From Paraspadella gotoi (Eukaryota; Animalia; Chaetognatha), in contig CM119264.1 of the NCBI GenBank assembly GCA_051294375.1, positions 12,916,813-12,980,812 of the forward strand: 64,000 nt of DNA, given 5' to 3'. Below the pieces are notes generated by a model, which searched no databases, was not told the origin of the DNA, and was given only the letters and a program-made list of their open reading frames with translations. Below, one piece after another: positions 35,401 through 41,400 of this stretch. Each line of letters begins with the position of its first letter. Position 1 is the stretch's first letter. A program made the translations under genes and the position numbers.

Positions 35401-38400
35401 TGATAAACCACAATAGTCATTACTCTTATCTTTCCACGGCCCTAAACCATAACACCTGACAGATTAGTCCTATTAACCTTGACCACCGCAGCCGCGGTTG
35501 ATAGCGAGTTGCTTTATCCATGAACCTTTTAACAAGATAATCAGAACCTAAAAACCTTGAGTGTCATCTACATAAACGTCCAACCTTTCTCTCAATCCCT
35601 TTTATCTTAATCCCCTTCTATATCTATCCTTTCTTACAGAATTCGCAAAAACCTCCGCAACAAACTATAAAGAGCATTGGAAGGAGGATCTCCCTGTTCT
35701 CACCTCCTCTATTAACCGATAATCTCCTGCGCTGAACCACTATGACCGATTAGACTAATGATCCTACTTGTCACTTTATTATAAAAAGCCCTTACCCAAT
35801 TCCTAAAGTTTTCACTAAAGCCATATTTCTCCTAAAGCTTTCAAACAAAACTATGATCTACCCGATCAAAGCATTTTCTAAATCTAGAAACACCATTGCA
35901 CCACCCATTTTAAAAGCTCATAAATAATTTACTACATCTTGTATCACATGTAAATTGTCAGAAATCTTCCTTCCTGGCATAAACCAGCCTGATCCTCATG
36001 AATTATATTAGGCAATATAGTCATCAATCGTGCATTAATACATCCACTCATATTTATAATTCCACATTAACCAAACTTACTGGTCTATAGTTTTTAATGT
36101 CTTCCCTATCACCTTTTTTATAAATAAGACGAGAACTATTCCTTTCTGACATAGTCTTGTAACTCTCCCTGTTTCATTAATCCATTTAACCACCTCCATA
36201 AAAATCTATCCGCAACCATATTCCAAAAATATTTCCAGAATTTTTGGTTAAAGTATCGACGTCAAAATACTCCGTTACGTCGTCGTCGTCGTCGTCGTCG
36301 TCGTTATTATCATTTTTTCTTTCGATCGATCGGAATTTTTTTTTCCCTTTTGTTTGAATTTTGAATTAGCTTCCTCAGCAACCGTCGTCTTCGTCATCGT
36401 CGTCTTCGATAGAAAAAAAAATATGAAAGTTTCCGGTGACGCGAGATGATTCCAGATTCTGAAAAAAAAAATGTTTAACGAAAAAAAAGAGAATCTTTCA
36501 AATTTTTCGTCATTTATTCGTTTGTTCGTTTTAGCCATTGAGTCGGCTTTAATGATGATAATCATCATCCTCATTATCTCCATAGGGGAAATGGTAAAAA
36601 GCGAGATTGTTATCGACTTTGTCATCGTTTTGATGTTTTGATATTCAACTTTTCAACTTTTTTATCCTTTTTCAGGTAAAGCCGACACTGCCTCCGGCGA
36701 CTCGCAACGCCGCTGCGGCTCGAGCGGCGGCGGCGGATGCTGCCGCGGTGAACGAGACCACCAACGCTACGGAGACGACGGCGGCGCCGACGGAGGCGCC
36801 CGGATCGACGGATTTGCCGCCGGAAGTCGGAAGGGAAGTCGTGAAGAGTCAGATCGAGAAGCTGACGTCGGTGGCCAGTGAGTTGGGGCGGAGTTATGAA
36901 AGGAAGGACGCATGGGGTGGCTTGAGTGCGAATGAAGGGTCGGTGATTGGGAACTGAGTTGAAAAGGGTGGCGGGAGTAAAAAGTCCGACATAGTCAAGG
37001 GGATAGAAAACTAGAAGGAAGAAACAGTTTTTTTAAGAACAATATCGAAGTGGAGTGGTGTGGGGTGGAGAGTAAGCGTCAGATGAAAAATAAAACGTGA
37101 TCAGCGATCAAACTTTTTAAAAACAATCTTCACTATTTCTCCAAATCATCCTCGACTCTTTTCCATAGTGTTCGACGCCGCCGCCCAGCCGACCGCCACT
37201 ACCGCCTGCACCACCAACAACGGAGGCTGCGATCAGCTCTGCTTTCCGCAGTCCGGTCTCTCAACCAAAGTGTGCGGCTGTTACAAAGGAGAATTGCAAC
37301 CTGACGGGCTGACGTGCAAAGCGCCCAATGATGGGTTCATCATGTACACATTCGTAAGTGTTTTGTTTTGAAACAAGCCATGAGAGTTTCATGGTTATTT
37401 TGAATAGGATATATAGAATTTATAGATTTTAAATAAAGTACAAATATACAGTATTAAAATAACTTCAATAAAGTTTTTATGAACACTTTGCTTTAAATTT
37501 TCAAACAAATCTCAATTTTCATGTCTAATGTCTTTCTTAATGACTATATAGAAAAACGAGGTTCGTTTTCTCTCCATGGACCCCGACGTCCACACGCCCC
37601 CCCACGCGACGCTCAACGCGACGCCAAGCGGATCCGTCATCGCGTTGGACTTCGATCCCGCGGTCGGCGAAGCAAAGAGGTGCAGTTGCTATTACCGAAT
37701 GAGGCTCGTTGCCGATCGTAAATTATAAACTATCACCAATTATTAATCTAATCCCGCTAAAATCTTAAATATCTATTCAAATTCTCAAAATTACTTATTT
37801 TATTATATATTTTGTATACGGGAAGCATGTTCTTTCTTTTTCCGCTTCAGGGTATTCTTCACCGTCTTGGGTCGCGGTCGAACTGACCCGAGCAGAATCG
37901 CGTCGTTCGAGATCGAAGAGCGAGGGCTTTCCGCCGTCACTGAGGTCTTCGTTGGATCTCAGCTGCCAACGGGTTAGTTAAGAGAGATGGTTGACAAGTT
38001 TTGGGGTGGCACTTAGTCGTAACGAACTCTTTCCTTTGTTACTTCCGGAATATTTTAAATATTTTAAATGTTTACGGTTTTTTTTTTCAACTTTTTAAAA
38101 TCGTCCGTTTTGGTTCTCACCTCGACCGCGAAATCGAAACCGTGCTCGTGTCCAGACACGCCCTTAACTTTTCCCTGGCGCAATAAGAGATCGATCGTGG
38201 ACGAGGTTAAAACCGACGACGAAAATGACAACGACGTCGAAGCGTTAGACGATTGGCTCAGCCTCGATCGAGAGTTGGATGAGGAAGCGCTACTCCTTTA
38301 TTCCCACAACGACGTTCAAAAAGGTCGTTACGATGGAGGTGACGACGAAATCTCTCGTCGTAACGGATCGACGGTCCCGCGAATGCGGCGCTCTCTAGCC

Positions 38401-41400
38401 TCGCGAACGCGGCGAACGCCAGCCCTGGCTCGTCGCGCCATGGCCCGATCCCGCTCTCGTCTCCCGGGCGCCGGCCAGACTTCGCAGAATATCTATGAAG
38501 ATGACGATATACACTTGATGCTAGCTCGGCTCCTCGACGAGCTAAGAGGAGGTCGCCATTTCTCGCTCTCTATCTCGCCACCTCAATCGATTTAACGCTA
38601 ACAGTTTCCCATCAACAAATAGAAAAGTTTTGAATATTATCTTTTCCTTTCGTTTCCGATAGCTCCTTACTTTATCTACCTTACTAATTTTCCACTTACT
38701 TAACGTTGTTCAACGAAGGTATCGACCCACAACAATAAACCATCTCGCATTACAGAAAAAAAATAAATTTAAAATAAGCTAACAAACCATCAAAACGCCT
38801 ATTTTATTTTATTCGAAAAATCTATTAACTCAACAAAATAAACCATATATTTTGCCGATTAAAAAAAAACATTTCTTTTTTGAACCGATAGGCCAATTTG
38901 ACGTTCGTTCGCCCGAAGGCATTTCCACGGATTGGATCACGAAACGTATTTATTGGGTAAGTTATCGAAAAAAGTGAACAAAAAGTAAACAACTGTGGGT
39001 TTGTATAAGTTGAATAAAAAAAATAAAGTAAGAAGAAAAAAGTGGAAGATGTCATAAAATTGGTTTCAGGTCGACGCGCGACTGAGAAGAATCTTCTCCA
39101 TAAAATACGCGGGAACTCCGCCTCTCAATAGAGAAAGCAAGATCACGGTGATCACGGGAAATCTCGCCAATCCCAGAGCGATTGTGGTGCATCCTTGTAG
39201 GGGGTGAGTCAGGTCTTCTTGGTTTTTGCTCTCTTTATGTTTGCTCGCTCGCTCTTTCTTTCTTTCTTTCTTTCTTTCTTTCTTTCTTTCTTTCTTTCTT
39301 TCTTTCTTTCTTTCTTTCTTTCTTTCTTTCTTTCTTTCTTTCTTTCTTTCTTTCCCTTTATAAATATTTTAATTGTTTTCCTTCTATTTCTTTCTCGAAA
39401 TCTTTTTTTTCCCTCTTTTTTCATCTTGTTTATCTCTCTTTCCACTTTCCATAATTTAACATGTTTTTTTCCCGGTGGCTTCAATCTTTTATAATTTACG
39501 AAATGACTCATCTCTCTCTCTCTCTCTTTCTCTCTCTCTTCTCTCTCTCCTTCTCTCTCTCTCTCTTCATCTCTCTCTCCTCCTCCTCTCTCTCTCTCTC
39601 TTTCTCTCTCTTCTCTCTCCACCATTCCCACCCTCCAGTTATCTCTTCTTCTCCGATTGGGGTCGCAACGCCAAGATCGAGCGCTCGACCCTCGGAGGCC
39701 ACAATCGCACCGTCATCGTGTCCCGGAATCTTGGCTGGCCCAACGGGATGACGATTGACTTTGCCGAGTCCAAACTCTACTGGGTCGACGCCAAGCTCGA
39801 CAAGATCCAGAGATCGAGTTTCGACGGAAATCATTTGGAGACCATCGTCGGTGGGACATTGTCTAGTTGTGTTGTTGTTGTTGTTGTTATTTTGGTAATA
39901 ATCAGGGCCTCAAAACTGTAGAATTCTGATGTAGGGATTAGGAATGGTTGAGATGAGTTTTATATTTTAATTTTTTTATTTCTTTGTATTTTGATTTGCT
40001 ATTGAATAATAAGGAAATGCCCAAATGTCAAATTTAGACTCAACATAACCTAACTTAACCTAAACGCAATGAAAAAATGAGGTAACTTATTAAGAACAGG
40101 GGAGGAGTATTAAAGGAATAAAGAGAATCGACGGAAGAGAGAGACCTTAAACATTTTTAACTTTCATGGTTTGGGATTTGGAGGATTAATTCCAGAGAAA
40201 GGGAAGGAAATTCGGCGAAGCAGTCGGGGACCAGAAAACTCGGGTTCAAGACCGGTTTTAGTCTCAACGGTCGTGACGAGAATAAGACGAACTGAATTCG
40301 CATTCGAACCCTAAAAGAAGAACAACAACAACGACGACATTTTTTATATGAGATTTCACTCGAAAGTCGTCATCGGCTTTGCTGAGATAAAGGAATTTGA
40401 GAGAAAAAAAGTATGAAAAAGACAAAAACGAGTGAATTGAATTGAATCTTCTGGGGGGTGGGGGGGAAAGCACTTAGCTGTCAAGAAAAATTTCAAGTCG
40501 CTTTCGTCGTCTTCCCATAAAACTGATAAGTTTCTGACAGGTTTGCTCCTCTGGAATCGACAAAAAAAGTATCGTAACATTATGTTTTATTCTATTACTT
40601 AAAAAAGAGAACATGTGTCAGGTTATGTTTTTTGTTACTTTTTTTCGATAATATCCAAATTCTCGATGTTCCTGCTGCCTCCGATTCCGCGCGGAATTTT
40701 ATTCATGGATTCCATATTTCTCAGAAACCGTGGCTCATCCTTTCTCCGTCGCCGTTCACAAAGAGCACGTGTATTGGACGGACTGGAACCTAAAGGGCAT
40801 TTACCGCGCGGGCAAAAACACGGGCAGCGGGCTCACTTCAATGGTGCGCGGGTTAGACGGACGGCCAATGGACATTCAGATATTTACTTTTGGTAAGTTT
40901 AATTTGGTTTTTAGTTTGGTAGTTGTTAGGTTGGCTTGTCTTTTTGTGATGTTTAATTTGTTTTTTGATAAGTTCGGTTGGTCATCAAAGACAAAAGCGT
41001 AAATGAGCGAAATACGGGTAATTGAGAATAAATTGTTCGCGTTATAAATATAAATATAAATATAAATATAACTATATATTGTAAACATTGAGCATTATTT
41101 TTTTGACAGAGCGAGAGCTATGTTTAAACCCGTGCGAGAACGCTAACGGCCAATGCTCTGATCATTGCCACGCGGACGGCACGTGCTCGTGCGACGACGG
41201 GTTCGAGCTGTACGACGGGAAACTCTGCGTCCGGAGCGGAGGTCAGTAAAGAGGCGGATATGGATGAAAATTACTCTTACCCTAGCTTAACCCTCGCTTG
41301 CCATTACTCTCTCCAGGTCCCCCTTGCTCTTCCTTTCGCCCATTCCGTTGCCGCAACGGTCAGTGCATCTCCCGGCGCCAGGCCTTGCCAACGACGTCGA

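What the first reader, a model, noticed from the sequence alone, without database searches (positions are those of the whole stretch)
38156..38551. Prohormone-like, multi-furin-site cassette exon inside a megalin beta-propeller
Seen: the 37972-38891 intron contains an open, GC-rich 396-nt block with AG/GT ends in phase 1/1, exactly matching both flanking exons, so it can be included or skipped without a frameshift. It encodes [132 protein letters not shown]. That is three R-X-[K/R]-R sites (38179-38190, 38380-38391, 38404-38415) around an acidic spacer, as in peptide precursors. Known: furin/PCSK convertases cut R-X-K/R-R, and LRP1 is cut in its last propeller; I know of no such insert in LRP2 before cluster III. 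Inference: this could be a splice switch giving a processed two-chain receptor, a shed fragment carrying LDLa clusters I-II, or released small peptides. The GTC donor is weak, but other introns here also use GTC.
Basis: partly seen in the sequence, partly recalled or inferred. Interest (0 to 1): 0.8.

Follow-up and report, generated by a model that had tools for sequence, protein, structure and literature searches.

The report
Furin-site loop exon in megalin
An extra exon in an invertebrate's gene for megalin, a giant uptake receptor, is spliced into the RNA and adds a 132-residue loop with three furin-type cut motifs, so this megalin is likely cut into two chains that would stay attached, as its cousin LRP1 is; skipping of the exon was not seen.

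Summary
The exon is real. An RNA-like contig of a public run joins 37972>38156 and 38551>38892 at GT..AG ends and matches the block without a difference. The host is an LRP2/megalin orthologue. The block adds 132 residues at the end of an outer strand of propeller 6. That segment is 29-39 residues in 122 of 122 reference proteins and 32-33 in an arthropod-like megalin, against 180 here. The three R-X-[K/R]-R motifs exceed shuffles (p 0.006; 0.02-0.03 with local shuffles) and lie in a loop predicted to be mostly unfolded. The 'splice switch' is unproven: only the inclusion form was seen, although the exon's splice sites are among the weakest in the gene. Best reading: a lineage-specific, mostly included loop, likely cut by furin, leaving a two-chain receptor held together by the propeller as in LRP1. 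Shedding of the front half is unlikely. No homologue of the insert was found and no close relative could be checked, so conservation is untested. Both ingredients have precedents (LRP1's cut propeller, ApoER2's optional furin exon). New variant of a known kind; interest 0.42.

The parts
111..63959 (+). Host gene, LRP2/megalin orthologue: from within ligand-binding cluster I to the EGF repeats after cluster IV; runs off both ends of the window
   Evidence: Colinear tblastn chain to axolotl and zebrafish LRP2; groups with 12 vertebrate LRP2 at SH-aLRT 100 in a quick tree, on a long branch
37851..37972 (+). Upstream exon: strands 2-4 of the first YWTD repeat of propeller 6; ends in phase 1
   Evidence: RNA contig piece and joint; frame and alignment
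38156..38551 (+). The 396-nt exon, phase 1/1, adding 132 residues, no cysteine, mostly without predicted fold
   Evidence: Both joints in RNA contig, 0 differences; pTM 0.17, mean pLDDT 57 from a single sequence; no Cys
38179..38190 (+). Furin-type motif 1, RNKR followed by SI
   Evidence: Sequence
38191..38391 (+). 67-residue segment between motifs 1 and 2 (net charge -11, one N-G-S sequon, two short predicted helices) that double cutting would release
   Evidence: release is inferred
38380..38391 (+). Furin-type motif 2, RMRR followed by SL
   Evidence: Sequence
38404..38415 (+). Furin-type motif 3, RTRR followed by TP
   Evidence: Sequence
38416..38551 (+). 45-residue tail that would stay on the membrane-bound chain: Arg-rich start, Tyr among acidic residues, predicted 16-residue helix at about 38500-38547
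   Evidence: (helix 115-130 of P0001, block pLDDT 85)
38552..38557 (+). Weak splice donor GTCGCC, lowest of 34 scored
   Evidence: Leave-one-out weight matrix; used in RNA
38892..38956 (+). Downstream exon: start of the next YWTD repeat
   Evidence: RNA contig piece and joints; alignment
36676..36877 (+). Exon with a second lineage-specific insert: about 40 Ala/Thr-rich residues with two N-glycan sequons in the last blade of propeller 5; 202 nt, so not skippable in frame
   Evidence: In the same RNA contig; segment 96 aa against 47-57 in 122 references and 52 in L006

Best explanation
A 396-nt exon is spliced into this animal's megalin mRNA and puts a 132-residue loop with three R-X-[K/R]-R motifs into propeller 6; the loop is likely cut by furin in the Golgi, which would give a two-chain receptor whose chains likely stay locked together through the propeller, and the exon is likely included in most transcripts. 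Shown: the splicing, the frame, the host's identity, the absence of such a loop in the references, the motifs. Predicted: a position at the end of an outer strand (from a vertebrate model) and a mostly unfolded loop. Inferred: cutting at motifs 1 and 2 (and perhaps 3) drops out a 67-residue acidic piece and an 8-residue piece. The front chain keeps clusters I-II, propellers 1-5, and the first blade plus three strands of the closing blade of propeller 6. The rear chain keeps the rest, the 45-residue tail and the membrane anchor. The exon probably arose inside an existing phase-1 intron in a lineage that also lengthened other megalin loops. The cut is then a maturation step like LRP1's, at a different propeller.
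For: RNA contig with both joints, unbroken over 9402 nt, no skip joint listed. Segment of 180 aa against 34-36 in 110 rows and 29-39 in the other 12 of 122 and 32-33 in L006. The insertion point aligns to the end of strand E73-79 in a model of axolotl propeller 6 (pLDDT 86.7), which matches solved megalin. Three motifs in 132 aa against 1 in 973 other residues of the same protein and 0.23 per 1000 in 120 references. Shuffle p 0.006, or 0.02-0.03 when local composition is kept; two motifs followed by S-[I/L], p below 1e-4, but that pattern was chosen after seeing the sequence. 7 of the 10 long non-LRP2 receptors fetched (cnidarians, starfish, cockroach, bird LRP1) carry such a motif in the first YWTD repeat of their last propeller, one strand before the position used here. 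LRP1's chains stay associated after that cut (PMC13403279, PMC11325810, passages). Synonymous codon use is exon-like, 5th lowest of 20 exons.
Against: One contig from one run, not reproduced in a second laying; contigs drop rare forms, so skipping is not excluded. The donor is the weakest of 34 and the acceptor third weakest of 33, which fits an optional exon. No relative with the insert was found, so there is no evidence that the motifs are conserved. A motif is not a cut: mammalian LRP2 has one, with no evidence of processing (PMC4754494, passage). The insert is 14% Arg, which makes motifs likelier. The intact propeller with the insert could not be modelled; the structural position rests on an alignment to a vertebrate protein about 36% identical.
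Confidence: 0.5

Rival explanations
1. The exon is a regulated cassette: inclusion gives a furin-cut megalin, skipping gives an ordinary single-chain one, and the ratio differs by tissue or stage, like ApoER2 exon 6B/7B.
For: Phase 1/1, skip form open and only about 12 residues longer than vertebrate LRP2 over this segment (48 against 36). Weakest donor of 34, third-weakest acceptor of 33. Family precedent (PMC7410921, passages).
Against: No skip joint. The contig runs unbroken through both joints; a common skip form would be expected to break it (my recalled understanding of contig assembly, not tested). A single exon gained in one intron has to be symmetric whether or not it is optional. Several other donors in this gene are also far from consensus.
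Confidence: 0.22
2. The loop is a tolerated, near-neutral expansion in a fast-evolving megalin. It is either not cut or cut without consequence, and the motifs come from an Arg-rich, GC-rich stretch.
For: The same protein has a second insert of about 40 residues in propeller 5 and several of 5-8 residues. Long branch, 1.6 changes per column. With local shuffles the count of three motifs has p of only 0.02-0.03. No homologue.
Against: Two of three motifs are followed by S-I or S-L, which I recall as typical of real furin sites (post hoc p below 1e-4). Motif 1 stands outside the Arg-rich block. The motifs lie in a segment predicted to be exposed and unfolded.
Confidence: 0.18
3. Cutting sheds the front half (clusters I-II, propellers 1-5) as a soluble ligand trap, or releases the acidic piece as a signalling peptide.
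For: Paired motifs around an acidic spacer look like a precursor. ApoER2's furin exon releases a soluble ligand-binding fragment in vitro (PMC7410921, PMC1635701, passages). No cysteine in the insert links the chains.
Against: The cut lies inside a closed propeller whose first and last strands come from opposite chains (plus established YWTD topology), whereas ApoER2's exon sits next to the ligand-binding repeats. LRP1's chains stay together (PMC13403279, passages). The peptide has no homologue or family, and the Atlas look-alike at 0.78 is within chance.
Confidence: 0.1

Closest known systems
LRP1 (vertebrate; also the LRP1-type proteins P0152, P0150, P0131, P0140 and cnidarian P0034, P0043, P0107)
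   Same: R-X-[K/R]-R motif in a loop of the first YWTD repeat of a propeller; furin cutting gives two non-covalently bound chains (PMC11325810, PMC13403279, passages; motif positions).
   Different: LRP1 has one motif in a short loop between strands 3 and 4 of propeller 8 and loses nothing. Here there are three motifs in a 132-residue loop on its own exon, after strand 4 of propeller 6, in an LRP2 orthologue, and a 67-residue piece would drop out. Cutting here is not shown.
ApoER2/LRP8 exon 6B (human) / 7B (mouse)
   Same: Separate exon in an LDL-receptor-family gene that adds a furin motif to the ectodomain (PMC7410921, passages).
   Different: 13 residues, included at low level, placed by the ligand-binding repeats so that a soluble fragment is released in vitro. 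Here 132 residues, inside a propeller, and inclusion is the only form seen.
LRP2/megalin (rat 8JUT, mouse 8EM4, human 9CWM; axolotl P0103; arthropod-like L006)
   Same: Domain order and sequence; about 36% identity over propellers 4-6.
   Different: None of 111 vertebrate LRP2 rows (110 by source name or unnamed, plus P0014) nor L006 has this loop. Mammalian LRP2 is described as having a motif without evidence of processing (PMC4754494, passage).

Membership tests
LRP2/megalin | Domain order: four LDLa clusters with 2, 4 and 1 YWTD propellers between them | tested here: met
   Colinear chain over reference residues 178-4049; propeller 8 and the tail lie outside the window
LRP2/megalin | Closer to LRP2 than to LRP1 or LRP4 | tested here: met
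   490-568 bits to 12 vertebrate LRP2, 233-355 to LRP1-type, 290-380 to LRP4-type; tree support 100 (quick tree, long branch)
LRP2/megalin | Transmembrane helix and NPxY tail | not testable with these tools
   Outside the window; no genome is held
Furin-processed LRP1-type receptor | R-X-[K/R]-R in an exposed loop of a YWTD propeller | tested here: met
   exposure is predicted
Furin-processed LRP1-type receptor | Site in propeller 8, between strands 3 and 4 of the first repeat | tested here: not met
   This site is in propeller 6, after strand 4; the gene's own propeller 8 is not in the window
Furin-processed LRP1-type receptor | Protein is actually cut and the chains stay associated | not testable with these tools
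   Needs protein data
Alternatively spliced furin exon (ApoER2 6B/7B type) | Frame-preserving exon that carries a furin motif | tested here: met
Alternatively spliced furin exon (ApoER2 6B/7B type) | Both inclusion and skipping occur | tested here: inconclusive
   Inclusion only, in one contig; contigs drop rare forms; weak splice sites
Alternatively spliced furin exon (ApoER2 6B/7B type) | Site outside a folded domain, so that the cut frees a soluble fragment | tested here: not met
   Site lies between blades of one propeller
Prohormone / neuropeptide precursor | Released peptide is conserved, repeated or amidated, or belongs to a known family | tested here: not met
   No family or homologue; no repeat, and no Gly before any of the three motifs
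Exonised transposon | Similarity to a repeat or to other copies | tested here: inconclusive
   No notable copy in the window, no Pfam match, no further contigs on the exon at 80% likeness; the whole genome is not held

The most novel reading that the evidence does not exclude
The exon is a splice-gated pro-segment of megalin. Its Arg-rich half occupies the receptor's own acidic LDLa repeats like a built-in RAP, or its acidic half sits on a propeller face, keeping the receptor latent until furin removes it. Skipping gives a receptor active from the start, so one gene makes a latent two-chain megalin and an ordinary one-chain megalin.
Probability: 0.1. Interest if true: 0.75.

Novelty: new variant of a known kind. 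Interest (0 to 1): 0.42.

Why it matters
Megalin is treated as the uncut member of the LRP1/LRP2 pair. A natural megalin with an excisable loop in propeller 6 would show that a furin cut inside a YWTD propeller has arisen a second time, in the same repeat as LRP1's. It would mark a position where this receptor tolerates a 132-residue insertion or a chain break, which is useful for tagging or splitting it. It also offers a comparison for the open question of what LRP1's cut is for. The value is limited by having one species, one RNA contig and no protein data.

Tried and rejected
Homologues of the insert: none at E<=10 among 3166 candidates of 231-2000 aa (a weak test because full-length megalins are out of range); 1 hit among 1.84 billion representatives, an unrelated bacterial-looking repeat protein at 3.9e-4, rejected; 0 of 599 pattern matches in metagenomes; Atlas hits 0.79 and 0.78, within chance; no Pfam family.

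Relatives: the search for full-length receptors listed 120 of 829 hits, 110 of them vertebrate LRP2 by name or unnamed, with no named invertebrate LRP2. Of 15 metagenome loci only L006 covered the insertion site of a megalin. In one search several non-LRP2 rows matched at another propeller, so they are not true propeller-6 comparisons.

RNA: the run search listed one holder, not on record as RNA; its spliced joints argue that it is RNA. The second laying lost the spliced contig and showed only low-depth intronic and repeat contigs; I treat this as a tool filter, not as evidence either way.

Structure: the fold of the insert alone is low-confidence and was not used for a fold search. The short upstream exon found no solved structure by sequence. 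No complex prediction was run, because two halves of a known propeller would pass by likeness. Alignments A1 and A2 of scattered exons were poor and were dropped. The careful tree did not finish; the quick tree is cited.

Literature: ten searches found no report of a furin insert in any megalin; the library lacks most subscription papers, and the mouse LRP2 structure paper was not held. I recalled that vertebrate LRP2 may have an intron at this same position but could not confirm it. No supplements were read; alignments there could show invertebrate megalins with inserts.
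Full report
Observation. The block at 38156-38551 is as described: 396 nt between AG and GT, open in one frame of six, with three R-X-[K/R]-R motifs at 38179, 38380 and 38404. The upstream exon ends at 37972, one base later than stated. No whole genome is held for this window. 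One public run holds the stretch. It is not on record as RNA, but one 9402-nt contig at depth 40.9 skips six introns at GT..AG ends, including 37973-38155 and 38552-38891, and matches the block with no other letter and no gap. So the exon is spliced into a transcript. No joint that skips it was listed. A second laying on a longer stretch at lower stringency did not show this contig at all, so the support is one contig in one call. Contigs drop rare forms, so absence of the skip form is not shown.

Host gene. The window holds a megalin gene from inside cluster I to just past cluster IV, colinear with axolotl and zebrafish LRP2. A model of propellers 4-6 without the insert scores 490-568 bits against 12 vertebrate LRP2 and 233-392 against LRP1-type, LRP4-type and cnidarian proteins. 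It groups with LRP2 at support 100 in a quick tree, on a long branch. An exon just downstream matches rat LRP2 residues 2521-2590 best, which places the insert in the sixth propeller (numbering recalled from the LRP2 structure work). An earlier, unchecked note of this scan calls the genome a probable arrow worm (e1-10588039). I did not test that.

Is the loop unusual? From the second strand of the first YWTD repeat to the start of the next repeat, the segment is 180 residues with the exon and 48 without. It is 34-36 residues in 110 rows and 29-39 in the other 12 of 122 references examined; some of those 12 matched at another propeller. The references are nearly all vertebrate. One arthropod-like megalin from a metagenome contig, L006, has 32-33 residues there and no furin-type motif in 2316 residues. 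No homologue of the insert was found. The same mRNA carries a second insert, about 40 Ala/Thr-rich residues in propeller 5 on exon 36676-36877, and several of 5-8 residues. This lineage therefore lengthens megalin loops in general.

Where it sits. A model of axolotl propeller 6 (pLDDT 86.7; matches solved megalin) has the four strands of the first full repeat at 35-41, 46-51, 58-64 and 73-79. The insertion point aligns to the end of the fourth, outer strand. The insert alone is predicted to be mostly unfolded, with two short helices and a better-supported 16-residue helix at its end (single sequence, pTM 0.17). It has no cysteine. I could not model the propeller with the insert in place.

Are the motifs more than chance? 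There are three in 132 residues, against one in the other 973 residues modelled and 125 in 544,087 residues of 120 references. Shuffling the insert gives three or more in 0.6% of trials, and in 2-3% when local composition is kept. Two motifs are followed by S-I and S-L, a context that I recall as typical of furin sites; shuffles give two such in fewer than 1 in 10,000, but the pattern was chosen after the fact. The layout is: motif 1, a 67-residue acidic piece, motif 2, eight residues, motif 3, and a 45-residue tail. A motif alone does not prove cutting: a review states that LRP2 has one without evidence of processing (PMC4754494, passage). The common vertebrate motif in my set follows the start of propeller 8 and probably lies in a strand (inference).

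Is it a cassette? For: phase 1/1, an open skip form, the weakest of 34 donors and the third-weakest of 33 acceptors by a leave-one-out matrix built from this gene (one acceptor was dropped for a wrong coordinate, and introns with unclear ends were left out). Against: only inclusion was seen, the contig is unbroken across both joints, 7 of 27 internal exons checked have lengths divisible by three, and a single exon gained inside one intron must be symmetric whether optional or not. Codon use is exon-like, 5th lowest of 20 exons. I put regulated skipping at about one in four.

Mechanism. The likeliest course is that the exon is included, the loop is cut by furin in the Golgi, the acidic piece drops out, and the two chains stay together. 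A YWTD propeller closes with strands from both of its ends (one search shows strands at 3-8 and 11-16 and at 251-257; their pairing in one blade is established knowledge), so a cut after the first blade leaves two interfaces. LRP1 is cut in its eighth propeller and its chains stay bound (PMC11325810; PMC13403279; passages). In my own set, 7 of 10 long non-LRP2 receptors, from cnidarians to a bird, carry the motif in the first YWTD repeat of the last propeller, between strands 3 and 4. The insert here lies in the same repeat of a different propeller, one strand later. Shedding of the front half, as with ApoER2's optional 13-residue furin exon (PMC7410921; PMC1635701; passages), is less likely, because that exon lies next to the ligand-binding repeats and not inside a propeller. 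A hormone role has no support beyond the layout.

Comparison and novelty. It works like LRP1's maturation cut, and its gene structure recalls ApoER2 exon 6B/7B. It is neither: wrong paralogue and propeller for the first; no demonstrated skipping and the wrong position for the second. Ten literature searches found no megalin with such an insert, within a library that lacks most subscription papers. Passages of PMC9187072, PMC13058979 and PMC13313491 held nothing on this; PMC9993842 was not held; no supplements were read. Six look-ups in earlier findings showed no report on this insert.

Verdict. The feature is real and expressed. The two-chain reading is plausible and testable; the switch is open; conservation is untested. 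New variant of a known kind, interest 0.42.

Noticed in passing
window 36676-36877 (+): Exon that carries about 40 extra Ala/Thr-rich residues with two N-glycan sequons in the last blade of propeller 5; in the mRNA, not skippable in frame.
   Followed up: yes
window about 33900-36270 (-), inside intron 32615-36675: Decayed non-LTR retrotransposon-like remnant: reverse-transcriptase-like motifs in stop-ridden frames, read by eye, with many divergent matching contigs in run X1.
   Followed up: partly
window about 55557-57425 (-), inside a megalin intron: Nested antisense gene for an MFS/sugar-transporter-like (SLC22-type by eye) protein; Pfam MFS_1 E 2.7e-6, below the curated cut-off.
   Followed up: partly
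window about 11950-15035 (-) and 20750-22940 (-), inside megalin introns 10936-18766 and 19527-23480: Two further groups of GC-rich antisense open frames, up to 361 aa, that look like nested genes; no Pfam family at its cut-off.
   Followed up: partly
window 41318-41510 (+): An LDLa exon whose reading moves across all three frames, probably from small assembly errors; the window's sequence may have such errors elsewhere. The 396-nt exon is unaffected.
   Followed up: partly
window 37252 and 37287: Run X1 differs from the window at two exon positions, one Ser/Thr and one silent, so it is probably another individual or haplotype.
   Followed up: yes
P0034 4061, P0043 4053, P0107 4036, P0131 3960, P0140 3766, P0150 3942, P0152 4074: The LRP1-type furin motif in propeller 8 is present in three of four cnidarian LRP1/2-like proteins, which suggests that it is old and that vertebrate LRP2 lost it; not tested with a rooted tree.
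   Followed up: partly
L006 3-6953: Uninterrupted 2316-codon frame of an arthropod-like megalin (45% identical to axolotl LRP2) in a metagenome contig; no insert in propellers 5 or 6.
   Followed up: yes
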